In this document: in pieces, positions 2,567-51,980 of the stretch
How positions within the stretch are numbered: the stretch's first letter is position 1
Layout: each line of letters begins with the position of its first letter
NCBI GenBank assembly: GCA_003647275.1
Contig: QMMN01000010.1
Location: forward strand, 1,121 to 65,120
Length of the DNA: 64,000 nucleotides
Direction of reading: 5' to 3'
Source: Deltaproteobacteria bacterium
Lineage (GTDB): Bacteria; Desulfobacterota; Desulfobacteria; Desulfobacterales; C00003060
The notes under the pieces: model-generated
Seen by the model: only the letters and a program-made list of their open reading frames with translations
What the model was told of the DNA's origin: nothing
The model's database searches: none
Program-made: the position numbers and the translations under genes

Positions 2567-5142
2567 AGGCCATATATAAGTATAACGTCCTTGCGAAGCT
2601 GCCAGACAGGCTAAAGCCCCTGGAAAGGCTCGCCTACAATTTATGGTTTAGTTGGCACCATGACATCGGCTACCTGTTCAGCCGGATGGACGCTGAGCTC
2701 TGGGAGTCTTCAAAACATAATCCCGTCTATATGCTGGGGGCCATCAGCCAAAAGCGCTTGGAGCAGCTGGCAGAAGATGCAGGCTTTTTGGCTCAGATGG
2801 ACCGGGTTTATGAACAGTTGGAACAGTACCTTTCCGTTCAACCCTCTCCGATCCCTGAAGCCCGGGATCTGGCTCGATTCGGTGTTGCCTATTTTTCGGC
2901 AGAGTTCGGCCTGGCCGAGTGTTTGCCTATTTATTCTGGAGGACTGGGCGTCCTTGCGGGTGACTACCTGAAATCTGCCAGCGACTTGAATTTTCCCGCC
3001 GTAGGTGTCGGCCTTTTTTACCACGAAGGCTATTTTCAGCAGTACTTGAATGCCGACGGGTGGCAGCAGGAAGCCTATCCTGAGAACGATATTTCCACCA
3101 TGCCGGCCAGTCTTATGACAGATGAAAATGGCCAACCGGTCATGGTGGAGGTATCTATACAGGGCGAACCCGTCAAAATTCAGATATGGCGCCTCATGGT
3201 AGGGCGTGTTCCCCTGTACTTGCTCGACACGAATATCAAGGAAAACTCGCCTGAGCATCGTTACATCACCTCGCGGCTTTATGGCGGAGACTGGGATATG
3301 CGACTCAGGCAAGAGATCGTCCTGGGCATTGGTGGCGTCCGCGCACTCCGGGCCCTCGGCGTAGAAGCCTCAGCATACCACATGAATGAAGGCCACTCTG
3401 CCTTTTCTGCCTTGGAACGAATCCGCATCCTCAAAAATGAGCATAGCCTGTCCTTTGATGCTGCAAGGGAATTCGTGGTCGCCACCAATACCTTTACGAC
3501 CCACACACCTGTGCCAGCGGGAAACGACATGTTTTCACCAGACCTTATGCACACATATTTCGAAGATTATGTGCAGTCTCTCGGCATTGCTTTTAAGGTT
3601 TTTTTGGGATTTGGCCGCCAGGAGCCTGGAAACGACCAGGAGACTTTTTCTATGACAGTGCTGGCCTTAAGGCTGTCTGCCCATTCGAATGGGGTAAGCC
3701 GATTACATGCCAGCGTTTCCCGCAACATGTGGCACAAAATCTGGCCCAAGAATCCTATGGAAGATATCCCTATCTACCCTATAACCAACGGGATTCACAT
3801 CCCATCGTGGATTTCGAAAGACATGGCAGAACTCTTTGATCGTTATCTGGGGCCAAACTGGATCGAAGATCCGGACAGCCAGAAGGTGTGGAAACAGGTG
3901 AAACAAATCCCAGATTCAGAACTATGGCGGACCCATGAAAGGCGGCGGGAACGCCTCGTCGCCTTTGCAAGACGAAGGCTGCAGACCCAGCTTAAAAGCC
4001 ATGGCGCATCAGCCCAAGAGCTTGAGACTGCCGCCCAGGTGCTCAATCCGGAAATTCTCACCATCGGATTCGGCCGTCGCTTTGCCAACTATAAACGCGC
4101 AACCCTTATCCTGCAGGACCAGGATCGGCTTGTTAAATTGCTGACCCATCCCGAACGTCCCATCCAGATTATTATAGCAGGTAAGGCCCATCCCCAGGAT
4201 GCCCCAGCCAAGGAGCTTATTAGAAGGATTATCCATTTTGCCAATCTGGAAGAGGTTCGCCATCGGTTTGTATTCATCCAGGACTACAATATCAGGGTGG
4301 CACGCATGATGCTTCAGGGCTGCGATGTGTGGATCAACACCCCCCGGAGGCCCCTGGAAGCGTGCGGTACCAGCGGCATGAAGGCCATCCCTAACGGCGT
4401 GTTAAACTTAAGCACCCTGGATGGATGGTGGGATGAAGGTTATGACCCAAGTTATGGATGGGCCATTGGTCGGGGTGAGACCTATGAAGATCATCACTTG
4501 CAAGACGAGGTGGAAAGCCGAGACATTTACAATCTCTTAGAACGAGAGATCGTACCGCTGTTTTATGACCGAGGCTTGGATAATCTGCCCCGTGGTTGGC
4601 TGGAAAAGATGAAGGCAGCCATGTGTTATCTTTGCCCGATTTTTAACTGCCACCGGATGCTACAGGACTACACCAATCAATGCTACATCAGTGCCTCAAG
4701 GCGATACAATGAGCTTTCAAGAGACGACATGAAGGGTGCCAACGAGCTGGCCCAGTGGCGACAAAAAATCTTGACCAACTGGGACCAGATTCGGATCAAT
4801 CGTATCCATGTGCACGGAGGCACACCTGTGCCGGTGTCGGGTTACCTCAAAATCGGGACCGATATCTTTCTCAATGAGCTTAAACCTGAAGACGTGGATG
4901 TGGATATCTATTTCGGACCATTGAGCTTTAAGGATGAGTTCACGGAAAGAGAGACTATCCAGATGAAAGCTGTGGATTCTGACGGCAATGGCAACCATCA
5001 TTTTGAGGGCGAGATACCATGTACCGAGACAGGCAAATACGGGTTTACTATCAGGGTCATGCCGAGTCGTCAAAAGATGGAAACCCCGTATACCACAGGT
5101 CTGGTGATCTGGGCACAGGACCAGGCCATTGTGAACCCGTAG
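2563..5142 (+). CDS. glgP: alpha-glucan phosphorylase (GT35, maltodextrin/glycogen phosphorylase type)
   Basis: An 859 aa ORF with the motifs YFSAEFGL, YSGGLGVLAGDYLKSASDL and EACGTSGMKA (PLP lysine context). Confidence 0.88.
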   Translation: MKAIYKYNVLAKLPDRLKPLERLAYNLWFSWHHDIGYLFSRMDAELWESSKHNPVYMLGAISQKRLEQLAEDAGFLAQMDRVYEQLEQYLSVQPSPIPEARDLARFGVAYFSAEFGLAECLPIYSGGLGVLAGDYLKSASDLNFPAVGVGLFYHEGYFQQYLNADGWQQEAYPENDISTMPASLMTDENGQPVMVEVSIQGEPVKIQIWRLMVGRVPLYLLDTNIKENSPEHRYITSRLYGGDWDMRLRQEIVLGIGGVRALRALGVEASAYHMNEGHSAFSALERIRILKNEHSLSFDAAREFVVATNTFTTHTPVPAGNDMFSPDLMHTYFEDYVQSLGIAFKVFLGFGRQEPGNDQETFSMTVLALRLSAHSNGVSRLHASVSRNMWHKIWPKNPMEDIPIYPITNGIHIPSWISKDMAELFDRYLGPNWIEDPDSQKVWKQVKQIPDSELWRTHERRRERLVAFARRRLQTQLKSHGASAQELETAAQVLNPEILTIGFGRRFANYKRATLILQDQDRLVKLLTHPERPIQIIIAGKAHPQDAPAKELIRRIIHFANLEEVRHRFVFIQDYNIRVARMMLQGCDVWINTPRRPLEACGTSGMKAIPNGVLNLSTLDGWWDEGYDPSYGWAIGRGETYEDHHLQDEVESRDIYNLLEREIVPLFYDRGLDNLPRGWLEKMKAAMCYLCPIFNCHRMLQDYTNQCYISASRRYNELSRDDMKGANELAQWRQKILTNWDQIRINRIHVHGGTPVPVSGYLKIGTDIFLNELKPEDVDVDIYFGPLSFKDEFTERETIQMKAVDSDGNGNHHFEGEIPCTETGKYGFTIRVMPSRQKMETPYTTGLVIWAQDQAIVNP

Positions 5143-5354: not shown

Positions 5355-7388
5355 ATGCCCAAGGTTTTGACGACCTGCTGTTTTTGCGCCTGCGGGTGCA
5401 ACTTATATCTTCAGGTCGAAGCTGGAAAGGTCATTGGGGTGACCCCCAGCAGAGAACATCCCATTACCCGGGGAAACCTGTGTCTCAAGGGATGGAACAG
5501 CTTTGAGTTTGTCCATCACAAGGACCGTCTCCGATATCCATTGATTCGAAGAAGGGGCCACCTTGTAGAGGCGGATTGGGAAAAAGCGCTGAACTTGGTT
5601 GCACAAAGGCTGGCCGAGGTCAAGGACAAATATGGCCCCCAATCATTGGGGGTACTCTCTTCTGCCAAGTGTACCAATGAGGAGAACTATCTTCTAATGA
5701 AATTTGCGCGGGCCGTGCTGAAGACCAACAATGTGGACCACTGTGCCCGGCTATGTCATTCTCCAAGTGTCATTGGGCTAAGCAATGCCTTTGGTTCCGG
5801 GGCGATGACAAACGCCATATCAGAGCTTGCCAGCGCCGAGGTCATCTTGGTGACCGGCTCCAATACGACCGAGCAGCATCCCCAGATAGCACGGTTTATC
5901 TTTGATGCCCTGGCAAGAGGGGCCAAGCTGATTGTGGTGGACCCGCGACGTATTCCGTTGAGCAGATTCGCCCATATCTATCTGCAGCCACGCCTGGGGA
6001 CTGACGTGATATGGCTAAACGGCATGACGAAAATCATCCTGGAGGAGGGGCTCCTTGACGATGCCTTTATCAAGATGCGCACTGAAAATTTCAGGGCATT
6101 CAGCGAGATGCTGAAAAACTTTGACCTCGAGCAGGTGGAAGCCATCAGCGGGATCCCCCTGGAAGATCTCCGGATGGCAGCACGGGTGTATGCCGGTGTC
6201 AAGCGGGCCATGATCATTTATTCTATGGGGATTACGCAACACATCTCTGGAACGGATAATGTGCAATCCATTGCCAACCTGGCCATGTTGACCGGGCATG
6301 TGGAACAAAAGTATACCGGGGTCGGACCGCTCCGCGGCCAGAACAATGTCCAAGGGGCCTGTGACATGGGGGCACTTCCCGGAATGTTGTCAGGCTATCA
6401 AAATGTTGCAGACGAGGGCATCAGAAAAAAGTTTGAACGCGTATGGAAGACTGATCTGCCAACAGCCCCCGGTCTGACTGAGATTGATATGTTTCATGGA
6501 ACAGGGAATAAAAAAATTCGGGCGATGTTTGTTATGGGAGAAAATCCGGCACTCAGCCACCCTGATCTTAAAGCAACACGTGCCGCCTTACAAGTATTGG
6601 AATTTATGGCAGTATCAGATATCTTCCTGACAGAGACTGCAGCGTTGGCAGACGTGGTACTGCCTGCGGCTTCGTTTGCTGAAAAGAACGGAACCGTCAC
6701 CAGTACTGAACGCCGTATTCAAAGAGTTCGAAAGGCAGTGTCTCCTATTGGTGCAAGCAGGCCAGACTGGCAGATCATATGCGAACTGGCCTCTCGGATG
6801 AATTACCCCATGGCTTACGAATCCCCGGCAGAGATTATGGAAGAGATCGCCATGCTGACCCCCATTTACGGCGGCGTATATTACGATCGGCTGGAACAGG
6901 GGTGGGGGTTGTTTTGGCCGTGCCCGAACCGAGACCATCCGGGAACGCCCTTTTTGCACAAGGGTTCATTTGTACGCGGGAAGGGACGCTTTGAATGTAC
7001 TCTATATCGTCCTCCTGCAGAAATGCCGGATGAGGCGTATCCGTTTTATCTAACCACAGGACGGATCTCCGAACATTGGCATACGGGAAGTATGAGCAGG
7101 CGGATTACGGCCCTTTCCAGAGAACGGCCAGAGGCATTTGTTGAGATCAATCCACAGGATGCAAAGCGCTTGGGGGTGGCAAACAGGAAACCGGTTCGGG
7201 TCGTTTCAAGGCGCGGAGAAATTACAGTCAAGGCACGCCTTACAGACGATGTTCCAGAAAAAACGGTCTATATCCCTTTTCACTTCACAGAGGCTCCGGC
7301 CAATATCCTCACCCATGGTCACTGCGATCCAGAGGCCAAGATCCCGGAATTTAAGGTATGCGCGGTACGGTTGGAAAAGGTGCAGTGA
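5355..7388 (+). CDS. fdhA: formate dehydrogenase alpha subunit-like molybdopterin oxidoreductase (Cys type, no signal peptide)
   Basis: The N-terminal 4Fe-4S motif is CCFCACGC...CLKG. The fold is FdhF-like MopB, and ARLCHSPSV places Cys where Sec or Cys ligates Mo. The internal ATG 5355 (MPKVLTTCCF) is preferred over the TTG at 5289. Confidence 0.82.
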   Translation: MPKVLTTCCFCACGCNLYLQVEAGKVIGVTPSREHPITRGNLCLKGWNSFEFVHHKDRLRYPLIRRRGHLVEADWEKALNLVAQRLAEVKDKYGPQSLGVLSSAKCTNEENYLLMKFARAVLKTNNVDHCARLCHSPSVIGLSNAFGSGAMTNAISELASAEVILVTGSNTTEQHPQIARFIFDALARGAKLIVVDPRRIPLSRFAHIYLQPRLGTDVIWLNGMTKIILEEGLLDDAFIKMRTENFRAFSEMLKNFDLEQVEAISGIPLEDLRMAARVYAGVKRAMIIYSMGITQHISGTDNVQSIANLAMLTGHVEQKYTGVGPLRGQNNVQGACDMGALPGMLSGYQNVADEGIRKKFERVWKTDLPTAPGLTEIDMFHGTGNKKIRAMFVMGENPALSHPDLKATRAALQVLEFMAVSDIFLTETAALADVVLPAASFAEKNGTVTSTERRIQRVRKAVSPIGASRPDWQIICELASRMNYPMAYESPAEIMEEIAMLTPIYGGVYYDRLEQGWGLFWPCPNRDHPGTPFLHKGSFVRGKGRFECTLYRPPAEMPDEAYPFYLTTGRISEHWHTGSMSRRITALSRERPEAFVEINPQDAKRLGVANRKPVRVVSRRGEITVKARLTDDVPEKTVYIPFHFTEAPANILTHGHCDPEAKIPEFKVCAVRLEKVQ

Positions 7389-9536: not shown

Positions 9537-9863
9537 GGTTGATAGCCCCTTGTTTCGGTCGTGTCCGTTGATACTTGTTCTGCCAGGATGGTTTCATTGC
9601 CGAAATCCTAAACGTCGTTCATTCAGATAGATACCAACAGAGATACAGGCGGCCTCATATCGTTCCTTCCCGTTTAAAACATATAGATAGAATTAACTAT
9701 TTACGGGCTGCTGCTCAAATCGCGACAATACAAATGTTTAATGGTCTTTTACTCTTTGAAGGCTGAATGTATAGCTATCTGGGCAATAGCCTGGTTACAA
9801 CTGACAACAGCCAACCAACATCGAGGATTGACATGGAGTGCACACGTGCTTTAGACATAACGC

Positions 9864-10697
9864 ATGATCCTGTCGTTCCATCCGCGTGTCAAAGGAGATG
9901 TGAATCTCCGGCTGACCTTAAAAGGGTCCTTTTCGGACAAAGAGATCAGGCTGATTGGCTCAGCCCGCGCCATTGTGGTCACACAAAGCATTAAGGCCCA
10001 CCAATACGCATTCTGTCGAACCCATTGTGCCAATCTTTTCCCTGATTATACCTACCGATTTGGTTTTGAAGGAAAATACGGCAATATTCAGCTCTTGCGG
10101 ACATTCAATGCCCCCCATCCTAAAACCACCTGCTACGAATCAGTAGAAGACTTTAAGATTCGCCATTTCAAGAATCATGAGCCACTCATGTCGTTCCCCT
10201 TTGTGTTAAAAGGAGACCGGGGTGGCGGCGGCTGGGCGGTTTTCCTTATAAGAAACGAGCATGACCTCATAAGGCGGCTTAAGATCCTGGCCGATGAGTC
10301 CCTGCATGCGACCAAGCGTTTCATCGCCCAGACTTTTGTCCCTCACCGCGGAAGGGACCTGCGGGTGGTGGTTATTGGCAGGATCACGAAGGCCTACTGG
10401 CGGTGTCAGCACAAGCCGGGGGAGTTTCGAAATAATGTGGGCAGGGGTGCAGTGATCAATTATGACCTGGATCCTGAACTAAAAAACAAGGGAATAAAGT
10501 GTGTGCAGGATTTGTGCTCAAAGACAGGCATCAATTTGGCCGCCTTTGATGTGTTGTTTGACCGGAATCAACCGGAGCCAGAACCACTTCTTTCAGAGAT
10601 CAATTTTCTGTTTGGTCGTAAGGGCCTGGGGGGTTCTCCGCGTTTCTATGAACTCCTGAACCACGCCGTTCAACAATGGACAAGGGAACTGCGATAA
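9864..10697 (+). CDS. ATP-grasp family protein (RimK-like ligase fold)
   Basis: A 277 aa ORF with FVLKGDRGGGGWAVFLI, FIAQTFVP, GRDLRVVVIG and a FRNNVGRGA motif. Confidence 0.65.
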   Translation: MILSFHPRVKGDVNLRLTLKGSFSDKEIRLIGSARAIVVTQSIKAHQYAFCRTHCANLFPDYTYRFGFEGKYGNIQLLRTFNAPHPKTTCYESVEDFKIRHFKNHEPLMSFPFVLKGDRGGGGWAVFLIRNEHDLIRRLKILADESLHATKRFIAQTFVPHRGRDLRVVVIGRITKAYWRCQHKPGEFRNNVGRGAVINYDLDPELKNKGIKCVQDLCSKTGINLAAFDVLFDRNQPEPEPLLSEINFLFGRKGLGGSPRFYELLNHAVQQWTRELR

Positions 10698-10721
10698 CAG
10701 TAATCGTTGTCCATTCAGTGC

Positions 10722-11138
10722 CTACCCGTGCGCTTGATGAGATCCTCGATTCCTCATATAATCGTCCAGGGCCGCCTGTAAGGTCTCAGCAGCCAGGCTA
10801 GCACAATCCATATGGTCTCTGGGAAGACCACCCATGGATGCCTGGATAAGATCAGCGTCAATGGCCAGGATCTCATCCGGGGTTTTCCCCTTGGCAAGAT
10901 CTGCGGCAGCACAAACACAGTTTAGACTATAAACGCATCCATTGGTCTGGTAAGAGGTCTCTGCGACGCGATTTCCGGCAAATGTCAGGCGGATCTCCAT
11001 GGTGTCTCCACACCTTCCTGTCACACACGCTTTCCCGTCGGCCTTTTCTAAATGGGGATTCAGCCAGTAATAAACAAGAAACCATGCCACCACGATGACA
11101 ACAAGGACCCCGCCTGCAATAAGCATATTTGAGCACAT
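10722..11138 (-). CDS. membrane-anchored NifU/IscU-like Fe-S scaffold protein
   Basis: An N-terminal TM helix is followed by IscU-type motifs (CGDTMEI, NGCVYS, HMDCASLAAETL). ATG 11138 overlaps the apbE TAA by 1 nt; the longer ORF to 11198 would overlap apbE by 60 nt. Confidence 0.65.
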   Translation of the reverse strand: MCSNMLIAGGVLVVIVVAWFLVYYWLNPHLEKADGKACVTGRCGDTMEIRLTFAGNRVAETSYQTNGCVYSLNCVCAAADLAKGKTPDEILAIDADLIQASMGGLPRDHMDCASLAAETLQAALDDYMRNRGSHQAHG

Positions 11139-12178
11139 TAAGCCGAAGGCCACCCGTTCGACATAACTCTTGCCCCGGTGGAACTCAAGATCAGACATTC
11201 AGTCCCTGGCACATTTTCTATAAATTTCTTGCCCGCTAAGGGCCCTAAAACAAAACCTGTTGTGGAAAGGGCATCGGCATCCATCGTATTACCAGCCAGG
11301 ACGGTCACACTGGTGCTTTCAAGCGGCGAACGGCCTGTTTCCGGGTTTACAATATGATGGTATAGCTTTTCCTGATCAAAATAGACCTCGTAGTTACCGG
11401 AAGTGGCAATGGCGCCATTCACCATGGTGATGGTGTCAACATAGGGGCCTTCCTTATCGGGATTTTGAATCGCCACCTTCCACGGGATCCTGCTATCCTT
11501 ACCGCCAATGGCTCGAATATCCCCGCCAGCATTAATCAACGCATGTTTCATTCCATGTCGTTCGATCACCTTGGCTCCACAATCAATGATGTACCCCTTG
11601 GCGATTCCATCTAAGGTAACACCCATTCCGTCTTTGGCAAACCGAATGGTATGCCCATCGAACCGGATCTGACTGGCATCTACCAGGTCAAGGACCTTGG
11701 CTAATTCGGCCTCGGACGGAGGGGCCTGATGAGTCGCAAAGTGCGCCTTATAGAAATCAACCAGCGGCTTTACGGTGATGTCAAAGGCACCGTTGCTGGC
11801 CTTATGAAAATAGAGCGAACGGGCAATGACCTCTGACACTTCCAGGGGAAGGTCGGAGATATAGCCGTCCCGGTTGAGCATTCCAATGGCCGAAGCTGAC
11901 TGGTAACGATTCACCAACCGGGCAACCCGATCCATCTCTTCAAAGGCCATCCCGATCACCTCTTCGGCCTCGGCCTTTGAGGGGTGCATCACGGTAATCG
12001 CTGCAAAGGTCCCCATGGAAAGCCGCGCCCTGGTTACTTTATACAGTTTTCTGTTGAAGGCCACACTCTCTGAAACCGGCATCAAGCCACCAAAGGCAAA
12101 TCCCATACCAAGAATGCCTGAGTATTTCAGAAAGGTTCTTCGGTCCATGGTTCGATGGTTTTCTTCTTGAGCATACAT
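11138..12178 (-). CDS. apbE: FAD:protein FMN transferase (flavin-trafficking protein)
   Basis: Tat-type signal (DRRTFLKYSGILGMGFAFG) plus ApbE motifs (LDGIAKGY, ATSGNYE). A GGGGGA RBS precedes ATG 12178. Confidence 0.85.
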   Translation of the reverse strand: MYAQEENHRTMDRRTFLKYSGILGMGFAFGGLMPVSESVAFNRKLYKVTRARLSMGTFAAITVMHPSKAEAEEVIGMAFEEMDRVARLVNRYQSASAIGMLNRDGYISDLPLEVSEVIARSLYFHKASNGAFDITVKPLVDFYKAHFATHQAPPSEAELAKVLDLVDASQIRFDGHTIRFAKDGMGVTLDGIAKGYIIDCGAKVIERHGMKHALINAGGDIRAIGGKDSRIPWKVAIQNPDKEGPYVDTITMVNGAIATSGNYEVYFDQEKLYHHIVNPETGRSPLESTSVTVLAGNTMDADALSTTGFVLGPLAGKKFIENVPGTECLILSSTGARVMSNGWPSA

Positions 12179-37299: not shown

Positions 37300-39346
37300 C
37301 CCCTGTTTCCCCCTTCTTGTTTTCGAGGCCTGTAATTTCTGACACAGGTAGATATATTATAAAAACAGCGCCCCCCGCATCTGCTCCCTCTTTGTCTTTT
37401 GAGAACAAGGGTGGGCTCTGGACTTCTATTCTTCCTCCATGCTCCTGAATAATGCCGAAGGTAACCGACAATCCGAGACCAGTCCCTTTACCAACCGCCT
37501 TGGTGGTAAAAAAGGGATCGAAGATCTTATCTATCTTTTCGGGTGGAATGCCACGGCCGGTATCGGCCATAGAGATCACTAACTCACTATTTTTCTTGTC
37601 AAAACTGGTTGTTATAGTAATGGTTCCATCCGTGCCGATCGCATCATGGGCATTGTTAAGCAGGTTAACGAAGACCTGTTTGAGCTTCTCTTTGTCCCCC
37701 TTAACAGGAGGCAAATTGGCATCATAATCTCTTTTGATTGTCACTCTCTCTAACTTGAAAGTATGCTCCACAACAGATACCACTTCTTCAATGCATTGGT
37801 TTATATCGACCGAGGTCACAGTACTTTCCGTATGCCTGGAAAATCTCAGAAGGTCAGCCACAATCCTGCGGCATATCTTACTTTGCTTTTCTATGGTCTG
37901 AAGCCCTTCATAGATATCTCCACCCTCTGGCGCTTCCTCCAACAATAGTTGGGCATAGCCTAAGATAATCCCAATAGGCGTGTTAATCTCATGGGCGATA
38001 CCAGCGGCCAATTGTCCGATAGATTCCATCTTCTGAGATTGAACCAGTCTCGCCTGGATTTCTTTGAGTTCGGTTATATCTCTTCCACTCCAAAGAATAC
38101 CGGTTACATTTCCATCAGTATCATATACGGGTATCTTAACCACGTGGAACCACTTCTTGCCTTTGGCAGCCTGTACTTCGTCCTGCCTTTCAAACGGTTT
38201 ACCGGTCTCCATAACCCTCAAGTTTTCCTCATGGTTCTTCTCAGCAAGATCCCTAGGGAAAAGTTCAAAATCTGTCTTGCCGATAACATCTTTTTCTTCC
38301 TTAGAAATAAACTTACAGAATGCCTTATTAACAGCCCGGTATATTGATTCCCGATCTTGCAGGCAAACAATGTCAGGCGTTGCATCGAGAATGGTTTGAA
38401 GGAGCTGACTCTGCTGCCTCAATCTCTCTTCCGTTTCTTTCAGACCAGAAATGTGTTCATTGAGGGACAGGGCCATGACGTCAAAGGATTCAGCAAGATG
38501 CTGAATCTCATCCCCTGCATTTTTCCTGTAAACCTTACATTTTCGACAAGTGTCAATCTTCTGCGCATAGTCCCCTGCAACACAGGTTGGACACATGGTG
38601 CCAGCAAGATACCAGCAGCGACGGCGGGTATCGCCATAAGCCGGACACTGCTTCTTGTCGCACGACATGATTTCCCAGCAGTCTTGTTTCAACAAGGGGG
38701 CTGTTTGAGCGTCGAGATTCCCCTTGACAGCCTCTTCTGATGAACGACGGAGGATATTGATCCTTTTGGTCACCGTGCGGGCAAAGAATGTTCCCACAAA
38801 CCCTGCTATGATGATAACAAACCCGGTGGCTAAAAAGATGGTTCGCAAAAGTCTATTGATCGTTTCTTGTACTTTGGTCCTTGAAATGCCTATGTGTACT
38901 GCGCCAAATCGATCGCCGCCGATAAAAATAGGAACAGCAAAATCATATATAAGTTCCTTTCCTGTATTCAGAAGCTTTACATTAAAGTTTTTTTCAAGGG
39001 GCACGATGTTTGCCATTTTCAGCTCAACTGGAAAGCCCCCCTTAAACGAATGAACCAAGGTCTCCTTACCCTTATCGAGAATGAAAGTATAAGAAACATC
39101 GTCACTGAGGCGAGCGACTTCATCTAATAGATCATTCATCCGAAGGAAATCCATGGCCAAGATAGGTTCCCTTATGCGGGCAGCAAGATTTACAGCAATA
39201 GCAATCCCTCTCTTCTTATTTTCTTCTAAAAGTGAGTCTGTTACTATTTCACTCACGATCACCGATAAAACAATTCCAAACATAAGGAGTATAGAGATGA
39301 TCACAGTATAGATTTTAGTCCTAAAACTAAATTTTAATGTTATCAT
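37274..39346 (-). CDS. sensor histidine kinase, paralog of 22698..24713 (TM/periplasmic, HAMP, two-CW Cys module, PAS, HisKA, HATPase)
   Basis: [34 protein letters not shown]...CRKCKVYRK, the H-box [10 protein letters not shown], and DTGRGI...GTGLGLS. Confidence 0.85.
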
Positions 39347-46066: not shown

Positions 46067-46096
46067 TCAAGTTCTTTAACTAAAATGCCGATCTAA
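46067..46096 (+). promoter_or_regulatory. candidate sigma28 (FliA)-type promoter
   Basis: TCAAGTTC-N12-GCCGATCT compared with the consensus TAAAGTTT-N11-GCCGATAA. It lies about 20 nt upstream of the riboswitch. Confidence 0.35.
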
Positions 46097-46116
46097 GAAC
46101 AGGTATAGTTTATGAA

Positions 46117-46214
46117 ATATCGTTGAAGGGCAAACCTCCCGAAAGGTAGGGGCGCAAAGCTTCCGGTCTAAATCCCCCTGATGCGGATAGGACAGCGGGG
46201 CTACCAAACGATAG
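46117..46214 (+). promoter_or_regulatory. c-di-GMP-I (GEMM-I) riboswitch aptamer
   Basis: GAAGGGCAAACCUCCCGAAAGGUAGGGGCGCAAAGCUUCCGGUCUAAAUCC...GGACAGCGGGGCUACCAAACG aligns block by block with V. cholerae Vc2 (CAGGGCAAACCAUUCGAAAGAGUGGGACGCAAAGCCUCCGGCCUAAACC...GGUAGCGGGGUUACCGAUGG). P1 is UAUCGUU/AACGAUA. Confidence 0.88.
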
Positions 46215-46221
46215 CAAGGAA

Positions 46222-46257
46222 CAGCCTGCTTCTTTCCTTTCGAGAGCGGCTTTTTTT
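46222..46257 (+). terminator. intrinsic terminator forming the riboswitch expression platform
   Basis: The GCCTGCT...AGCGGC stem is followed by T7, 20 nt before ATG 46277. Confidence 0.6.
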
Positions 46258-46276
46258 AGGGCCAAGGAGGTGGATC

Positions 46277-47551
46277 ATGCAAGTTACCGGTACCTATAAT
46301 AATTACCTGTCCGTGACCAATCTCCTTTCACCTCTGGGTGTAAGGGGCTCCGGGACCTTGGTCATGCAGGTCTTTTCATCGGCCATGAAAAATCTCCAAG
46401 ACAAGACGAACCAGCAAATATTTTCCCAGGAATCTGATGCTGCCCTAAAACAACTTTACAACGAAGTTTCGAATTTAAATAGCCAGGCTGAAAAATTGAC
46501 ACTCACCGATTTCTATTCCGTTTTCAACGACCGCACGCCAACCTCTTCGGACCCCAACGTGTTGACGGCTACGGCCGTGGACGCCTTTTCGCCGGATTCC
46601 GGAGCGGCAGAGGCCACCTATAATGTTTCGGTTACCGATCTGGCTCTAGCCCAGGAAAATACCGGCCTGGCATTGAATGCGGCTGATCCCAGCGTGGTTA
46701 ACCTGGGAAGCAATACCTTCAATATTAACATTAACGGCCAGGACCATGAACTCGGCATTGAGGTCGTGGATGGCGATACAAACGAGGCTGTCCTCCAAAA
46801 AATGGCAGCAGCCATTAATGACGCGAGCATCGGTGTGACCGCGCAAATAACCAACGGCAGTGTGGATGGGACTCAACATTTAGTGATCACGGCCGATCAA
46901 ACCGGAACGGCCAGTTCCTTTGCTGTCTCCGATATATCCGGTAACGCCGTGACCGCGACCGGTGCCGACACCGTGTCAACTGCGGCTCAGAATGCGGCAT
47001 ATACGGTTGATGGAACCGGCTATACGTCTGAAACCAACACCATTTATCTGGATGATGGCCTAGTTACGGTGAACCTAAAAGGAACGGGAGAAGCGATATT
47101 GACAGTAGCCCCGGATCAAAATGAGGTCAAGGATGCCATAACCGCCTTTGTGTCCGAGATAAATTCATTTATCGGCTTTCTGGAAAACAATAGTGATTAC
47201 ATCCAGGATGAGGTCCTTTCATCCGTGAACTCTTTTATCGCCAAGCACAGGGGTGAGCTTGAGTCCTTTGGTATCACCCAAGCAGAAGATGGAAAGCTTG
47301 TGATAGATACCGACAAACTGGGTACAGCCGTGAGAGATAACCTTTCAGATATTAAAGACACGTTTGGTGGTTTGGACGGATTGGCCATACAGACAAAAAA
47401 CTATACCTCTCATATAGCAACTGACTCCCCTCTTAATTATGCCAAAGAAGCAGAGGGTATGAGTATGAATTTTGTTGATTATATCTACGATACTTCCGCA
47501 ACAATGCTGGAAGGCATTGTCCAGGGAATGCTGCTCAACACCTTTGGTTGA
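46277..47551 (+). CDS. FliD (flagellar cap/HAP2)-like domain protein, orphan context
   Basis: AAGGAGG RBS. Central and C-terminal segments resemble FliD (ATYNVSVTDLALAQ, AYTVDGTGYTSETN, KLVIDTDKLGTAVRDNLSDIKDTF). The N-terminus is atypical. Confidence 0.6.
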   Translation: MQVTGTYNNYLSVTNLLSPLGVRGSGTLVMQVFSSAMKNLQDKTNQQIFSQESDAALKQLYNEVSNLNSQAEKLTLTDFYSVFNDRTPTSSDPNVLTATAVDAFSPDSGAAEATYNVSVTDLALAQENTGLALNAADPSVVNLGSNTFNININGQDHELGIEVVDGDTNEAVLQKMAAAINDASIGVTAQITNGSVDGTQHLVITADQTGTASSFAVSDISGNAVTATGADTVSTAAQNAAYTVDGTGYTSETNTIYLDDGLVTVNLKGTGEAILTVAPDQNEVKDAITAFVSEINSFIGFLENNSDYIQDEVLSSVNSFIAKHRGELESFGITQAEDGKLVIDTDKLGTAVRDNLSDIKDTFGGLDGLAIQTKNYTSHIATDSPLNYAKEAEGMSMNFVDYIYDTSATMLEGIVQGMLLNTFG

Positions 47552-47961
47552 TCTGGATTACTCAAAAAAATATCCATCAGCATCTCAATTCTTCCCTTTG
47601 ACCGGGCAGGAGTCCTTTGTGCCAAGGAAGGGTAGATGGATCGAGGATAGCCAAAAGATTTTATCTCATCCCTTCCTGTAAGGATCAATTTACCTGGCGT
47701 GTCGCGACTCGTTCCACCTCTAGAGATGCAGGTCCAGTTGACAGATTTCCTTTCTCATGTTTCCTTTTTCATCCACCCAATCTTCAAAAAACATCCGGAA
47801 AAGTGAGCCCGCACGTTCGATGACCTTTCTACGACGAAGCTCTACACCTGCCTGAGAAAGCAATCTCACGGGGAGGTTTTGATATGTCCTTCGAGGTTAC
47901 GGCTCATTGTGGGGGGTGCGAGTATTTCGGCACCCATCTTTCAGAATGGGCAAGGCAAACC

Positions 47962-48249
47962 TTAATCACGGTGGACAAGAAATCCAATTGAGGCGAGAAT
48001 AACAATGATGAAACCGAATCCAAAATAGATCGCAGTAAAGTGGTCTATCTTTTCAAGGTTGGGACCAAGCAACTCATCTCGGTTAAAGATATATCCCCAG
48101 TACAACGTGAAAAGGTAATTTATAAGCAGTGCCAGTTTTATCCGTCCAAAAAGCATGGCGAGTGTGCTCAGCGCCAGGAGCAACGCTATTTGAAAAAGAG
48201 GTACAGACAGTTCGGTTGCATGAAGAAACGCCATAAGCCCCTCTCTCAT
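47962..48249 (-). CDS. small hypothetical membrane protein
   Basis: A 95 aa ORF with three hydrophobic helices and no recognised family. Confidence 0.4.
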   Translation of the reverse strand: MREGLMAFLHATELSVPLFQIALLLALSTLAMLFGRIKLALLINYLFTLYWGYIFNRDELLGPNLEKIDHFTAIYFGFGFIIVILASIGFLVHRD

Positions 48250-48790
48250 AAAGTTTTACATTGATTTGTATTATACGAAATCTCTTTTTTAAAGTCAACA
48301 TGGATATGATTCTTGATACTGGAACCCAGTCTACCACCCTTTAAAAAATATAAGCGTGTGTCTCTGCGGCACCTGCAGAAACTTACAGGACTTCCCCCAA
48401 AAATTGATCTATAAATTAGTGAAGGATTATAATATCGGGCAGTTACTGGTGTTAGAAAGTAGAAAAGTGATTTTTTGAAAAATAGGGAAATTGTTTGTTG
48501 GGTTAATTAAAGGTGAGCCTCCTGTATGATAGATATCGGGGCGGTAGGTTGAATAGACCAAGTAATATACACCGGATACACCAGAGGAATCAAATGGAGG
48601 ATAGCAAAGTGACGGTCAAATTACAAGAGAAAATTGTTCATTTCTTTATGATACCGCCCATTACACTTTCAGCGTAAGCCGCACATCTCATCCGTAACAA
48701 TCCTCACTCAGAGAGTGCCGACCTATATATGAAAAAAATCGAAAAAATACTATATCTCGTATTTTGTTGTCCTAAAACCACAATATATGC

Positions 48791-48819
48791 TTGACATCTC
48801 CATTTTGGTGTGCTAAAGA
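48791..48819 (+). promoter_or_regulatory. sigma70-type promoter (extended -10) in ORF-free region
   Basis: TTGACA, a 17-nt spacer, then TGcTAAAGA. Confidence 0.4.
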
Positions 48820-48825
48820 AATAAT

Positions 48826-48931
48826 AGACAGGCCATGTGTGCGTGTGCCTGTTCACATCCCCCTCAGAGGCCCCTGAGCTTGGTGAAAGGTGTAAGACCT
48901 GCTGTGGCTGTTTTCTCAGGGGCTCTCTTTT
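48826..48931 (+). ncRNA. candidate small RNA (promoter to terminator-like hairpin)
   Basis: Hairpin ACAGGC/GCCTGT, then GAGGCCCCTGAG...CTCAGGGGCTC followed by TCTTTTT. No ORF is present and no known RNA family was recognised. Confidence 0.25.
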
Positions 48932-49052
48932 TCACGCTCGTCGGCTTCTCGCTTACCTCAAGACCACAAACCTAAATGTCGAGACCCTTTGCAAAACGTT
49001 CAATTTTATTCAAGGTCAAGGGTAATTCCGCGAGATAGCGGAATTGGACAAC

Positions 49053-49114
49053 TGTGAAGTTCCCCGCCCATAGGGCGGAGGTTCGCTTCGCGTCCGGAAA
49101 GCAGGCCGGTCAAG
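49053..49114. repeat. type Y repeat, copy 2
   Basis: GTGAAG, hairpin CCGCCC-ATA-GGGCGG, then GGTTCGCTTCGCGTCCGGAAAGCAGGCCGGTCAAG. Confidence 0.65.
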
Positions 49115-50375
49115 TTGCCTTCAAGTGCGAGGGGCATGGATGCCTCGAGTCAACACAAAGATTTTATCCATTCCAGAGAAATATGCTTCGCCCTAGTGAA
49201 ATATATTTCGTATTTCATAGAACAAGCATTTTACAGGGTAGGCAGGAATACTTTCGAGTATTTTGAGGACAGCGCTGACGGTTGCGCGTAACCGCTTGAA
49301 AAGAGGCACTTCGTGCAAAATCTGAGCCTGACGTAGAGATTGGGCAAAAGCGGAACATTCTCAAAACCCCTCCAACGAATATCCAAGAACGAGTGATTAC
49401 CAAACGCAGAGTTCATAACATGGTCCATGATAGAAGAACAATCAACCTCTTCTCGAGGACCCAGAAGGGGTAAATCGGGAAAGGAGGTAAACATGAGAAT
49501 ATTTTAAAGCTTAGCATACGTGAGACAAAGTATAATATCATACTGTTTGGGGCCCAAGATATCTGCGAAAAGTGCTTTGTGAAAAAGTTTGGTGCAAGCT
49601 AGTCGTTACGTGGTGGGACACCTCAAAAAAAACCTGAAAATTTCAAGTATAGGTAGTGTGTTCCGACGATAGAAGGTTGGAGGCAATTGATCGACACAAA
49701 AAAATAACATTTTCTCCTGGTTGCCTCATCTACTCATGCACTGTAATGCTCTGGCTGGGAATATTAATCACAAAAATAAAAGCGAGATGGCATTTGTCTT
49801 GCCTGTCCGTTCGATAGATTAACGGTTTGGCTGAAGTAGAATACGTCCAAGAATGACTTGATTAATGAAAGTGGTCTCAGAGGCAAATCTTCGGGTATTT
49901 GCAGAGAAAAATTCATTTCGTAATCACGCTAAATACAATTTGACTAAAATGAAGAAGACTGGCTAAATAAAGGTAGCAACGTCCAGGTCAAATTTAGCCT
50001 TCTCCTATGTGAGCTTATGCCACCTCATCTGCTCATTTGCTCTTAATGCACCTTAATCGAGTGAAAATGCCATTTCACTTCTGATAAAGTGCTTACCCAC
50101 AAAGACATCTAGGGTGATCAGCACGGTTTTTGTAAATCACCTGTTAACGTGTTTTGGTGATTCAATTGATTGGGCCAAATATCCCGTCCGTTCTTCGTTT
50201 ACGGCGGATGGAAGCAGATTTTTGACTCAATTAAGATGCACAAAAGTGGTATTTCTCTTTTTCCAATGAAATTTCTCAAAACATACGGATTTATTTTGAC
50301 TCTGTGCCAAACGCTGCATTTTAATCACATCGAATATAGTTTTGCTTAAACCTTCAAATAAACGGTTAATAGTCA

Positions 50376-50404
50376 TTGACTTTATTTCATCAATCTTTTA
50401 TAAT
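50376..50404 (+). promoter_or_regulatory. near-consensus sigma70 promoter of the IHF/HU-like gene
   Basis: TTGACT, a 17-nt spacer, then TATAAT. Confidence 0.6.
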
Positions 50405-50436
50405 TATTACTTAAGGGATTTTATCAGGAGGACCCT

Positions 50437-51824: not shown

Positions 51825-51902
51825 TGGCGTCCCCAACCGGATTTGAACCGGTGTTGCCGGCGTGAAAGGCCGGTGTCCTGGACCTGGCTAGACGATGGGG
51901 AC
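51825..51902 (-). tRNA. tRNA-Glu (anticodon UUC), CCA encoded
   Basis: Cloverleaf folded by hand: acceptor GTCCCCA/TGGGGAC, anticodon arm CCGGC-CTTTCAC-GCCGG, T arm ACCGG-TTCAAAT-CCGGT. Confidence 0.92.
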
Positions 51903-51904
51903 GC

Positions 51905-51980
51905 TGGTGGGCCGTGCTGGACTCGAACCAGCGACTCTCTGCTTAAAAGGCAGATACTCTACCACCTGAGTTAACGGCCC
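51905..51980 (-). tRNA. tRNA-Lys (anticodon UUU), CCA encoded
   Basis: Acceptor GGGCCGT/ACGGCCC, anticodon arm TCTGC-CTTTTAA-GCAGA, T arm GCTGG-TTCGAGT-CCAGC. Confidence 0.92.

What the first reader, a model, noticed from the sequence alone, without database searches (positions are those of the whole stretch)
46067..47551. c-di-GMP-I riboswitch with terminator controlling an orphan FliD-like gene
Positions 46117..46214 match the GEMM-I aptamer almost block for block with the V. cholerae Vc2 sequence (GGCAAACC, GAAAG, GGGRCGCAAAGCYUCCGGYCUAAA, AGCGGGGYUACC). The G equivalent to Vc2 G20 is retained, which is the c-di-GMP-selective state rather than the cGAMP-selective one. A hairpin plus T7 follows (46222..46257). 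The AAGGAA segment next to the 3' P1 strand can alternatively pair with TTCCTT inside the terminator stem, so a transcriptional switch is plausible, though its direction is unknown. The regulated ORF resembles the central and C-terminal parts of flagellar cap protein FliD, but it stands alone with no flagellar neighbours and has an atypical N-terminus. A sigma28-like element (TCAAGTTC-N12-GCCGATCT) lies upstream. This gene could encode a c-di-GMP-regulated surface or filament-cap-like protein with a non-flagellar role.
Basis: partly seen in the sequence, partly recalled or inferred. Interest (0 to 1): 0.6.

Follow-up and report, generated by a model that had tools for sequence, protein, structure and literature searches.

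The report
c-di-GMP riboswitch gating orphan fliD gene
A well-known RNA sensor of the bacterial signal c-di-GMP sits in front of a lone flagellar-cap-type gene in a sulfate-reducer-like sediment bacterium, and the pairing is conserved in dozens of relatives; the sensor is ordinary, but a cap gene that always stands alone is a modest curiosity.

Summary
Window 46119-46208 (+) is a full-length c-di-GMP-I (GEMM-I) aptamer: Rfam RF01051, 73.6 bits against a gathering score of 35. It is followed by a hairpin plus U7 terminator (46223-46257), a Shine-Dalgarno site, and a 424-aa gene (46277-47551). The gene passes Pfam FliD_N and FliD_C, and its predicted fold matches solved FliD caps over their full length.

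The whole cassette is conserved: sigma28-type promoter, aptamer, terminator, FliD-like gene. The aptamer is present in 34 of 38 orthologous loci from Desulfobacterales, Desulfatiglandales and Syntrophales. P1 and the terminator show compensatory changes, and the ligand-contact nucleotides G20, A47 and C92 are (near-)invariant.

The gene is always an orphan. There are no flagellar genes in the 64-kb window or in any related locus. The only recurring partner is a 112-117-aa "mini-rod" axial protein.

The terminator is self-contained and can coexist with the aptamer, which is the Cd1-type OFF architecture. So c-di-GMP most likely shuts the gene off. This direction is inferred, not shown.

Whether the hosts are flagellated could not be tested. 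This is a new member of a known kind, of moderate interest.

The parts
46067..46094 (+). Sigma28 (FliA)-type promoter: -35-like TCAAGTTC (46067-46074), 12-nt spacer, -10-like GCCGATCT (46087-46094). The predicted transcription start is near 46102.
   Evidence: 12 of 16 matches to TAAAGTTT-N11/12-GCCGATAA in the window. At the homologous position, 23 of 30 orthologous leaders score 14-16 of 16, against a shuffle null of P(>=14) = 0.0003. Dependence on FliA was not tested.
46118..46213 (+). c-di-GMP-I (GEMM-I) aptamer including P1. Helices: P1 is 46118-46124 with 46207-46213; P2 is 46130-46155 with a GAAA tetraloop at 46141-46144; P3 is 46158-46202. Ligand-contact equivalents are G20 = 46129, A47 = 46156 and C92 = 46204.
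   Evidence: RF01051, 73.6 bits against GA 35. On 25 leaders, P2 and P3 are 98% paired and all 6 P1 pairs show compensatory changes; 0 of 500 shuffles reach the observed covariation. G20 and A47 are invariant and C92 is C in 24/25.
46223..46257 (+). Intrinsic terminator. The stem is 46223-46231 with 46244-46251 (bulged U46227), the loop is 12 nt and pyrimidine-rich (contains CCUUUCG), and the U7 run is 46251-46257.
   Evidence: -9.1 kcal/mol. Equivalent hairpins of -9 to -22 kcal/mol plus a U-run are found in orthologous leaders. 8 of 11 stem pairs change on both sides.
46264..46270 (+). Shine-Dalgarno sequence AAGGAGG, 6 nt upstream of the start codon.
   Evidence: Read directly from the sequence. 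GGAGG-type sites are at the same position in orthologues.
46277..47551 (+). Monocistronic gene for a 424-aa FliD-family (flagellar filament cap, HAP2) protein of a distinct, length-conserved clade.
   Evidence: Pfam FliD_N and FliD_C are above their gathering scores. All NCBIfam FliD equivalogs are far below cutoff (79 against 387). The AF2 model has pLDDT 85.3. The top Foldseek PDB hits are all FliD, E 3e-21. The profile against PDB sequences gives 5h5v_A at E 3e-23. 154 family members were found, mostly exactly 424 aa.

Best explanation
This is a self-contained regulatory cassette for a late flagellar-type gene.

Transcription starts at a sigma28 (FliA)-type promoter (46067-94). It produces a 5' leader of about 170 nt that folds into a c-di-GMP-I aptamer (46118-46213). 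A separate intrinsic terminator (46223-57) lies between the aptamer and the ribosome-binding site of a 424-aa FliD-family cap protein gene (46277-47551).

The terminator shares no nucleotides with the aptamer, so the two folds can coexist. The switch therefore most likely works like the Clostridioides difficile Cd1 (Cdi-1-3) flgB riboswitch. Without ligand, the pyrimidine-rich 5' arm and loop of the terminator pairs with a purine-rich 3' strand of the unfolded aptamer (AGCGGGG of P3 or GAAAGG of P2), and the polymerase reads through. With c-di-GMP bound, the aptamer is locked, the terminator forms and the gene is switched off.

Biologically, high c-di-GMP would stop synthesis of the filament-cap-type protein and so halt filament assembly, in line with the general rule that c-di-GMP represses motility.

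Shown: the aptamer, the terminator, the promoter element, the FliD fold, and conservation of the whole cassette.

Inferred: ligand binding, the OFF direction (about 0.65-0.7), FliA dependence, and that the protein really caps a flagellar-type filament (about 0.6).
For: - Aptamer: RF01051 at 73.6 bits. The same aptamer lies directly upstream of the orthologous gene in 34 of 38 loci, with proteins 44-80% identical, from Desulfobacterales, Desulfatiglandales and Syntrophales.
- Structure: 82.6% of cells are paired against 39-56% when partners are slid; covariation is 0.279 against 0.162 or less; 0 of 500 shuffles reach it. P1 and the terminator are rich in compensatory changes.
- Ligand specificity: G20, A47 and C92 are (near-)invariant, which is the c-di-GMP state (PMC6140456).
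- Architecture: a self-contained terminator 10-25 nt after P1 in all leaders. PMC9262584 states that aptamer and terminator coexist in the OFF switch Cd1 but are mutually exclusive in the ON switch pilM.
- Antiterminator candidate: in every leader the terminator 5' arm is complementary to an aptamer 3' strand.
- Precedent: the class I riboswitch upstream of flgB terminates transcription on c-di-GMP binding (PMC6200980).
- Promoter: the sigma28 consensus is conserved at a fixed position.
- Protein: full FliD fold and domain set.
Against: - The direction is not demonstrated. Thermodynamic modelling of truncated transcripts gives only a weak excess of terminator-arm pairing with the aptamer (0.51 against 0.44 in controls, p = 0.07).
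- A cognate versus non-cognate test of the P2/terminator pairing is not significant (p = 0.107).
- The window's own terminator and aptamer energies are no better than shuffles.
- A flagellar role is not demonstrated. No flagellar gene lies within 64 kb here or within +-10 kb in any related locus.
- All NCBIfam FliD equivalog cutoffs are missed by a wide margin.
- Related lineages include genomes without flagella (PMC6129605).
- A non-flagellated relative keeps a FliA/WhiG sigma factor (PMC3570798), so the promoter does not prove the host is flagellated.
Confidence: 0.6

Rival explanations
1. ON switch for a surface or contact protein. c-di-GMP binding prevents termination, so the FliD-like protein (with the mini-rod) is made in the sessile, high-c-di-GMP state. 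It would serve adhesion, aggregation or partner contact rather than swimming.
For: - The gene is an orphan in every lineage examined and its only recurring partner is another orphan axial-type protein.
- It misses all FliD equivalog cutoffs.
- It carries a conserved N-terminal extension.
- Carriers belong to groups that are often non-motile or lack flagella.
- FliD of Pelotomaculum has been proposed to contact methanogen partners (PMC8892533).
- Neither energy modelling nor covariation proves the OFF direction.
Against: - The terminator does not overlap the aptamer. In the studied ON switch pilM the overlap is what makes ligand binding anti-terminate (PMC9262584).
- No conserved linker/terminator antiterminator that would be freed by P1 formation was found; the AAGGAA/UUCCUU pairing is specific to the window.
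- The promoter is of the class used for late flagellar genes.
- The protein has no signal peptide. It keeps the D0 termini that FliD uses for export and assembly through the flagellar apparatus.
Confidence: 0.2
2. Evolutionary relic. The hosts have lost flagella and the cassette is a leftover that is still transcribed and regulated. The protein would have no extracellular function, or an unknown intracellular one.
For: - The context is always orphan.
- Aptamers have decayed in L004 and L031 while the terminator is kept. A truncated paralogue remnant with a decayed aptamer is present in L013.
- Non-flagellated relatives retain FliA and che genes.
Against: - There is strong purifying selection. 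The length is exactly 424 aa in most of 120 listed homologues down to about 50% identity, many columns are invariant, and the reading frames are intact.
- The promoter, aptamer and terminator all persist across orders.
- Compensatory changes in the RNA helices show ongoing selection on structure.
Confidence: 0.08
3. The riboswitch acts mainly on translation. The pyrimidine-rich segment of the expression platform (CUGCUUCUUU, 46226-46235) sequesters the Shine-Dalgarno AAGGAGG, and ligand binding changes that pairing. The hairpin plus U-run would be secondary.
For: Folding 46225-46280 pairs 46226-46235 with 46264-46273 at -14.1 kcal/mol. The MFE fold of the whole leader also pairs aptamer and platform pyrimidines with the SD region.
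Against: - These folds are no better than shuffles (z +0.33 and +0.88).
- What is conserved across the family is the hairpin plus U-run with compensatory changes, not an anti-SD pairing. The SD lies 7-25 nt beyond the U-run at variable distance.
Confidence: 0.1

Closest known systems
Cd1 / Cdi-1-3 c-di-GMP-I riboswitch upstream of the flgB flagellar operon of Clostridioides difficile
   Same: Same aptamer class (RF01051). It sits in the leader of a flagellar-family gene, is followed by an intrinsic terminator that can coexist with the folded aptamer, and has a transcriptional OFF logic (PMC6200980; PMC9262584).
   Different: Cd1 controls an operon of early flagellar genes in a Firmicute. Here a single late-type gene (cap) is controlled in Thermodesulfobacteriota, from a sigma28-type promoter. 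The OFF direction here is inferred from architecture only.
Vc2 c-di-GMP-I riboswitch of Vibrio cholerae (structural reference for the class)
   Same: Nearly identical conserved blocks. It has the GAAA tetraloop in P2 and the G20, A47 and C92 ligand contacts.
   Different: The downstream gene and the expression platform differ. No binding data exist for the window's RNA.
GEMM-Ib 3',3'-cGAMP riboswitches of Geobacter (pgcA, pilM)
   Same: Same fold and clan, in related deltaproteobacterial-type lineages. They often use terminator-based platforms, and tandem arrangements occur (PMC6456294).
   Different: Those have A at position 20 and are ON switches whose terminator overlaps the aptamer. Here position 20 is G in all 25 leaders and the terminator is separate.
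Flagellar filament cap FliD (HAP2) of Salmonella, E. coli, Pseudomonas and Campylobacter
   Same: Pfam FliD_N and FliD_C are present. The predicted D0-D1-D2-D3 architecture aligns over 436-461 columns with full-length Salmonella FliD.
   Different: - About 20-25% identity only.
- All NCBIfam equivalog cutoffs are missed.
- It has a conserved N-terminal extension of about 14-17 aa.
- It is never next to fliS, flaG or flagellin.
- It forms a tight clade (4 representatives at 50% clustering) inside a halo of FliD-like proteins of about 410-440 aa.
FliD of Pelotomaculum thermopropionicum as a proposed signal to methanogenic partners (Shimoyama et al. 2009, as cited in PMC8892533)
   Same: A cap protein in an anaerobic, often syntrophic, poorly motile organism, with a suggested role beyond swimming.
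   Different: That organism encodes a complete flagellum, and no riboswitch is reported there. The link to the present family is speculative.

Membership tests
c-di-GMP-I riboswitch (Rfam RF01051, GEMM-I) | Covariance-model score at or above the curated gathering score, over the full model | tested here: met
   73.6 bits against 35, model positions 1-87 of 87, E 1.5e-12
c-di-GMP-I riboswitch (Rfam RF01051, GEMM-I) | Three-helix junction (P1, P2, P3) supported by covariation | tested here: met
   On 25 orthologous leaders P2 and P3 are 98% paired and P1 shows compensatory change in 6 of 6 pairs. 0 of 500 shuffles reach the observed score, and slid controls are far lower.
c-di-GMP-I riboswitch (Rfam RF01051, GEMM-I) | Ligand-contact nucleotides G20, A47, C92 (Vc2 numbering) | tested here: met
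   G46129 is G in 25/25, A46156 is A in 25/25, C46204 is C in 24/25. The roles come from PMC6140456. The position mapping is my inference.
c-di-GMP-I riboswitch (Rfam RF01051, GEMM-I) | Selective binding of c-di-GMP with a structural change | not testable with these tools
   Needs in-line probing or ITC.
GEMM-Ib cGAMP riboswitch | Adenine at position 20 | tested here: not met
   G in the window and in all 25 leaders. The G/A variation seen among orthologues is at position 19.
c-di-GMP-I-GGC variant (RF03167) | Best clan match to RF03167, with G at the A47 position (model consensus CGCGAAG) | tested here: not met
   The window's best clan hit is RF01051 and its sequence is CGCAAAG. Some orthologues (L007, L011, L039, L047) score best on RF03167 but still have A47.
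Rho-independent (intrinsic) terminator as expression platform | G+C-rich hairpin directly followed by a U-run, between the aptamer and the start codon, conserved with compensatory changes | tested here: met
   Window stem 46223-46251 plus U7, -9.1 kcal/mol. Orthologues have hairpins of -9 to -22 kcal/mol plus a U-run. 8 of 11 pairs change on both sides. The window's hairpin alone is not significant (z -0.47).
Transcriptional OFF riboswitch (Cd1 type) | Aptamer and terminator can coexist, and an antiterminator forms between the terminator 5' arm and an aptamer 3' strand | tested here: inconclusive
   Coexistence is met, because the strands do not overlap. Complementarity to AGCGGGG or GAAAGG is present in all leaders. 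The statistics are weak (p = 0.07; p = 0.107).
Sigma28 (FliA) class III flagellar promoter | TAAAGTTT-N11/12-GCCGATAA at a suitable distance upstream | tested here: met
   The window matches 12 of 16 (weak alone). 23 of 30 orthologous leaders match 14 or more of 16 at the homologous position, against a null of P = 0.0003. FliA dependence itself is not testable here.
FliD / HAP2 flagellar filament cap | FliD_N and FliD_C domains above the Pfam gathering scores | tested here: met
   FliD_N 35.2 against 24.8, and FliD_C 55.2 against 25.4
FliD / HAP2 flagellar filament cap | D0-D1-D2-D3 fold | tested here: met
   AF2 pLDDT 85.3. The top 36 Foldseek PDB hits are all FliD, best E 3e-21, and the D2-D3 TM score normalised to the target is 0.70-0.78.
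FliD / HAP2 flagellar filament cap | Equivalog-level sequence match (NCBIfam FliD models) | tested here: not met
   The best is NF005955 at 79.1 bits against a cutoff of 387. The Desulfatibacillum orthologue scores 67 against 387.
FliD / HAP2 flagellar filament cap | Location in a flagellar locus (flaG-fliD-fliS, flagellin neighbours) | tested here: not met
   None in the 64-kb window or within +-10 kb of any related locus.
FliD / HAP2 flagellar filament cap | The host encodes a flagellar export apparatus and filament, and the protein sits at the filament tip | not testable with these tools
The literature shows patchy flagellation in these orders.

The most novel reading that the evidence does not exclude
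The short orphan FliD-like protein and the D0-only 'mini-rod' protein may form a two-gene module that has been uncoupled from the swimming flagellum. The module would be gated by c-di-GMP and driven by a sigma28/WhiG-type factor. It would persist in Thermodesulfobacteriota (and, for the FliD-like part, in Bacillota such as Gelria) that lack a full flagellum. Its function would be in surface or cell-to-cell contact, for example contact with syntrophic partners, as once proposed for Pelotomaculum FliD.
Probability: 0.12. Interest if true: 0.75.

Novelty: new member of a known kind. Interest (0 to 1): 0.4.

Why it matters
The riboswitch class and the theme "c-di-GMP represses flagellar genes through a terminator" are established, so the RNA itself adds little.

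What the comparative work adds is a cleanly defined, widely conserved regulon unit in poorly studied sediment and syntrophic Thermodesulfobacteriota. A single late gene is controlled by both a sigma28-type promoter and a c-di-GMP aptamer. That gene, a compact FliD clade, is never found in a flagellar locus and is sometimes paired with a minimal axial protein.

If the hosts are flagellated, this is an economical checkpoint: blocking only the cap stops filament growth. If some are not, it would be a case of a flagellar cap protein kept for another purpose. That is directly testable in the cultured Desulfatibacillum and in the complete MAG contigs.

Tried and rejected
It was checked in 25 leaders. 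Only L003 has an analogous linker/loop pairing (GCAAAAGC/GCUUUUGC) and most have none, so I rejected it as the conserved switch element.

2. **Thermodynamic determination of switch direction.**
   - Best duplex partner of the terminator 5' arm: z between -2.4 and +0.75.
   - Truncated-transcript base-pair probabilities: 0.51 against 0.44, p = 0.07.
   - Cognate versus non-cognate P2/terminator duplex energies: p = 0.107, and the automatic terminator picker mis-called the window and L047.
   - None of these is decisive.

3. **cGAMP variants.** I first read the G/A variation among orthologous aptamers as position 20, implying possible cGAMP variants. After anchoring on A18-G19-G20|G21-C22 and A47, it is position 19. 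G20 is invariant.

4. **Context look-ups.** Three look-ups for other window genes failed, presumably because the gene caller chose different start codons. I replaced them with direct Pfam scans.

5. **Literature on Desulfatibacillum flagella.** The AK-01 genome paper is not held, and the other hits were uninformative.

6. **Literature on this pairing.** I found no paper describing a GEMM riboswitch in front of fliD in these lineages.

7. **Mini-rod or 'cluster 1' homologue in the window.** None found (tblastn, best E 0.43).

8. **ORF-poor 47.6-50.4 kb stretch.** Permissive Rfam and repeat scans found nothing credible.

9. **Stand-alone mini-rod loci L053-L055.** They have no riboswitch.

10. 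**Gelria homologue.** It has no riboswitch upstream.
Full report
**Observation check**

The window holds one riboswitch. It is a full-length match to Rfam RF01051 (c-di-GMP-I) at 46119-46208 on the + strand, at 73.6 bits against a gathering score of 35.

Read with the Rfam alignment, the helices are:
- P2: 46130-46155, with a GAAA tetraloop at 46141-46144.
- P3: 46158-46202.
- P1: 46118-46124 (UAUCGUU) paired with 46207-46213 (AACGAUA), seven base pairs.

Downstream lie the following features:
- A hairpin, 46223-46231 with 46244-46251, carrying a bulged U46227, at -9.1 kcal/mol.
- A U7 run at 46251-46257.
- AAGGAGG at 46264-46270.
- ATG at 46277.

The longest ORF starts at 46181 inside the aptamer. 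The real start is 46277, because every orthologue begins MQITGSY at that position behind a GGAGG.

Taken alone, the window's folding energies are no better than shuffled sequence, and its sigma28-like element matches only 12 of 16 consensus positions. The case for the terminator and the promoter therefore rests on comparison with relatives.

**Comparative evidence**

The 424-aa protein belongs to a well-populated family. There are 154 hits, mostly exactly 424 aa and 49-80% identical. Where named, they come from Desulfobacterales or Thermodesulfobacteriota MAGs.

I fetched 17 genome loci and 29 metagenome loci, plus contexts for long contigs. Rfam scans at gathering threshold place a c-di-GMP-I-clan aptamer directly upstream of a FliD-like start codon in 34 of 38 loci that have enough upstream sequence. 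Some of these loci are near-identical to one another.
- The window itself.
- 14 of 17 genome loci.
- 18 of 19 metagenome loci.
- L049.

The exceptions are instructive:
- L004 and L031 carry visibly decayed aptamers but keep the terminator.
- The two Desulfatibacillum loci (L015, L016) have the promoter 70 nt from the ATG and no aptamer.

I aligned 25 leaders and annotated P1, P2, P3 and the terminator. The counts are:
- 82.6% of cells form standard pairs, against 39-56% when the 3' partners are slid by one to three columns.
- The covariation score is 0.279, against 0.162 or less for the slid controls.
- None of 500 shuffles reaches the observed values.
- All six inner P1 pairs and 8 of 11 terminator pairs change on both sides.

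The ligand-contact nucleotides are (near-)invariant: G20, A47 and C92 in Vc2 numbering, with roles from PMC6140456. G46129 is G in 25/25, A46156 is A in 25/25, and C46204 is C in 24/25. A G/A polymorphism that I first took for position 20 is at position 19.

**Promoter**

About 20-30 nt upstream of P1, most leaders carry T[A/C]AAGTTT-N11/12-GCCGATAA. Five leaders match the textbook sigma28 consensus at 16 of 16 positions, and 23 of 30 match at 14 or more. Mononucleotide shuffles of the same 330-nt upstream regions reach 14 with probability about 0.0003. The window's TCAAGTTC-N12-GCCGATCT (46067-46094) is the homologous, slightly degenerate copy.

The assignment to sigma28 is based on the established consensus for FliA-dependent class III flagellar promoters. 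Dependence on FliA was not tested.

**Direction of the switch**

The terminator is a self-contained hairpin that begins 10-25 nt after the 3' strand of P1 in every leader. It shares no nucleotides with the aptamer.

Landgraf et al. (PMC9262584) contrast two homologous switches. In the OFF switch Cd1, the aptamer and terminator folds coexist and compete with an antiterminator made from the terminator's switching strand and an aptamer strand. In the ON switch pilM, the aptamer and terminator are mutually exclusive. The present architecture is of the Cd1 type.

In every leader, the pyrimidine-rich 5' arm and loop of the terminator (CCCGCUU, CCUUUC and similar) is complementary to an aptamer 3' strand. 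The partner is AGCGGGG of P3, or GAAAGGNNGGG of P2 in the Syntrophales group.

There are anecdotal compensatory changes:

| Leader | P2 loop region | Terminator loop |
|---|---|---|
| window | CGAAAG | CUUUCG |
| L003 | CAAAAG | CUUUUG |
| L006 | AAAGACA | UGUCUUU |
| L004 | AAAAACAG | CUGUUUUU |

The formal tests are weak, however: p = 0.07 and p = 0.107. I therefore take OFF as the most likely direction (about 0.65-0.7). It rests on architecture plus the precedent that the class I riboswitch upstream of the C. difficile flgB operon terminates transcription on c-di-GMP binding (PMC6200980). I leave the exact antiterminator unresolved.

**The protein**

- Pfam FliD_N (residues 28-126) and FliD_C both pass their gathering scores.
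- All NCBIfam FliD equivalogs are far below cutoff.
- An AlphaFold2 model built on 86 family members has mean pLDDT 85.3. Only the terminal helices have low confidence.
- The best 36 Foldseek hits in the PDB are all FliD. They include full-length Salmonella cap-filament complexes (E 3e-21, 436-461 aligned columns) and the D2-D3 crystal structures (TM score normalised to the target 0.70-0.78).
- A family profile hits E. coli FliD at E 3e-23.

So this is a complete, compact FliD, not a fragment. Its one peculiarity at the N-terminus is a conserved extension of about 14-17 residues (MQITGSYNNYL...) ahead of the usual LGVxGSG motif.

An exhaustive search of 1.84 billion cluster representatives finds a tight core clade, only four full-length representatives at 45% identity or more. 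Around it is a halo of several hundred FliD-like proteins of about 410-440 aa at 28-41% identity. The nearest halo group is in Bacillota (Gelria sp. Kuro-4, Thermodesulfitimonas). The Gelria gene is again an orphan, and it has no riboswitch upstream.

**Context and hosts**

The window encodes an Rnf complex, molybdopterin oxidoreductases, ParAB, an EF-G paralogue, one MCP and other housekeeping genes. It has no flagellar structural gene. Neighbours differ in every lineage.

The only recurring neighbour is a 112-117-aa protein carrying just the N- and C-terminal signatures of flagellar axial proteins (Flg_bb_rod and Flg_bbr_C). It is below all FlgB, FlgC, FlgF, FlgG and FlgE equivalog cutoffs.
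- It follows the FliD-like gene in the Syntrophales loci (L009, L010, L052; in L011 the two genes are separated by an inserted ORF).
- A degenerate copy precedes the FliD-like gene in the L021/L023-26/L039/L040 clade. That clade has two riboswitches in series about 580 nt apart, one before each gene.
- A genuine copy with its own riboswitch lies at L025 698-1051 (-).
- It forms a family of its own, with 325 hits all about 112-117 aa.
- Its stand-alone copies are also orphans, with sigma28- or sigma54-type promoters and no riboswitch.

The literature shows that the answer varies:
- Syntrophobacter fumaroxidans lacks all flagellar structural genes but keeps a FliA/WhiG sigma factor and che genes (PMC3570798).
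- Desulfatiglans anilini, strain NaphS2 and most single-cell genomes lack a flagellum (PMC6129605).
- One single-cell genome (SAG13) and Ca. Desulfatiglans TRIP_1 (43 flagellar genes) have one (PMC6129605 and PMC6849830).

Hence the sigma28 promoter does not prove flagellation, and the non-flagellar reading survives as a minority possibility.

**Comparison with what is known, and novelty**

The RNA is a standard member of RF01051 and would be picked up by any Rfam annotation. Control of a flagellar gene by a class I c-di-GMP riboswitch through termination is known from C. difficile.

What is new is the target and its conservation: a compact FliD clade that is always monocistronic, always outside flagellar loci, doubly controlled by a sigma28-type promoter and c-di-GMP, and sometimes paired with a D0-only axial protein. 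This holds across at least three orders of Thermodesulfobacteriota. I found no description of this in the searchable literature.

I file it as a new member of a known kind, with moderate interest (0.4). The most novel reading not excluded is a flagellum-independent, c-di-GMP-gated FliD/mini-rod module. I give it about 0.12 probability.

Noticed in passing
L009 11276-11638; L010 3979-4332; L052 11300-11638; L011 12697-13059; L025 698-1051 (-); stand-alone copies at L053, L054 and L055, 10001-10354: A family of 112-117-aa 'mini-rod' proteins. They have only the N-terminal (ANNIANVNT) and C-terminal (VDLAEE..LI..QR) signatures of flagellar rod/hook proteins. They pass Pfam Flg_bb_rod and Flg_bbr_C but are far below all FlgB/C/F/G/E equivalog cutoffs. 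There are 325 homologues of the same length. They are often adjacent to the FliD-like gene and otherwise orphan.
   Followed up: partly
L023 9264-9353 and 9845-9934 (also L021, L024, L025, L026, L039, L040): Two c-di-GMP-I aptamers in series, about 580 nt apart, each followed by its own terminator. Only the first has a sigma28 promoter in front. Between them lies a 94-aa ORF that is a degenerate mini-rod: the C-terminal SAQR..EAN...TIVDILS is kept and the N-terminal motif is replaced by low-complexity sequence.
   Followed up: partly
L014 9995-11269 and 11509-12780; L013 about 10000-10110 and 10414-11682: Tandem FliD-like paralogues. In L014 the first copy (MEITGAY...) has an AT-rich upstream region without an aptamer, and the second copy has promoter, aptamer and terminator. 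In L013 the first copy is reduced to a fragment of about 35 codons, preceded by the 3' half of a decayed aptamer.
   Followed up: partly
L004 about 6180-6360; L031 about 1160-1260: Decayed aptamers in front of intact FliD-like genes. L004 has lost the P3 3' strand and L031 keeps only P2. In both the sigma28 promoter and the terminator hairpin remain. If the switch is OFF-type, these genes may be constitutively attenuated or may have found another antiterminator.
   Followed up: no
L015 and L016 (Desulfatibacillum MAG and D. alkenivorans DSM 16219), 9770-10001: The only cultured carrier of the family (44% identity) has a perfect sigma28 consensus (TAAAGTTT-N12-GCCGATAA) 70 nt from the ATG, but no riboswitch and no terminator. 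It is a natural comparison for experiments.
   Followed up: partly
L056 (Gelria sp. Kuro-4, AP024619.1) 10001-11281 and 11556-11644: The nearest out-group of the FliD clade (41% identity, 426 aa) is in Bacillota. It is also an orphan and has no riboswitch upstream. A c-di-GMP-I-GGC aptamer (63.7 bits) lies just downstream of it, in front of a TPR / Cu_amine_oxidN1 gene.
   Followed up: partly
L033 2976-3054: A second c-di-GMP-I-clan aptamer (RF03167, 65.1 bits) lies about 750 nt downstream of the FliD-like gene. It sits in front of an HD-domain gene (3248-4021) that clusters with the CHASE/HD_5/HD protein of L051. That would be a possible c-di-GMP feedback loop on a phosphodiesterase.
   Followed up: no
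L053 about 9940-9965: A perfect sigma54 -24/-12 element (TGGCAC-N5-TTGC) lies about 60 nt upstream of a stand-alone mini-rod gene, with a sigma54 activator gene 1.5 kb upstream. L054 has a sigma28-type element instead. Both sigma factors belong to flagellar regulatory hierarchies in related bacteria.
   Followed up: no
window 47552-50436: About 2.9 kb directly downstream of the FliD-like gene has no ORF longer than 95 aa and a lower G+C (36-42% in parts). No terminator-like site, Rfam hit above threshold or notable repeat was found. The 95-aa ORF (47962-48249, -) looks like a small membrane protein with no Pfam family.
   Followed up: partly
window 38259-38286 (+): This is the only other sigma28-consensus match in the window (AAAAGTTC-N12-GCCGATAA, 2 mismatches). 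It lies inside a histidine-kinase gene on the opposite strand, and about 0.7 such matches are expected by chance, so it is probably meaningless.
   Followed up: no
L011 11495-12658: A 387-aa ORF (possibly a transposase; not annotated) is inserted between the FliD-like gene and the mini-rod gene. It splits what is a two-gene unit in L009, L010 and L052.
   Followed up: no
L039 1069-1629 (-); L040 760-993 (+): Group II intron domains (RF02005, RF01999, RF00029) lie a few hundred bases upstream of the tandem-riboswitch region in two metagenome contigs.
   Followed up: no
PMC6129605 supplementary Table S9: In the Desulfatiglans single-cell genomes, the one 'FlgC' entry carries a locus tag of SAG8 (Ga0151390_1002610), a genome otherwise listed without flagellar genes. 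That would fit a lone mini-rod, but the SAGs are incomplete and I could not read the sequence.
   Followed up: no
window 51828-51980 (-): Two adjacent tRNA genes (70.1 and 60.6 bits), unrelated to the finding.
   Followed up: no
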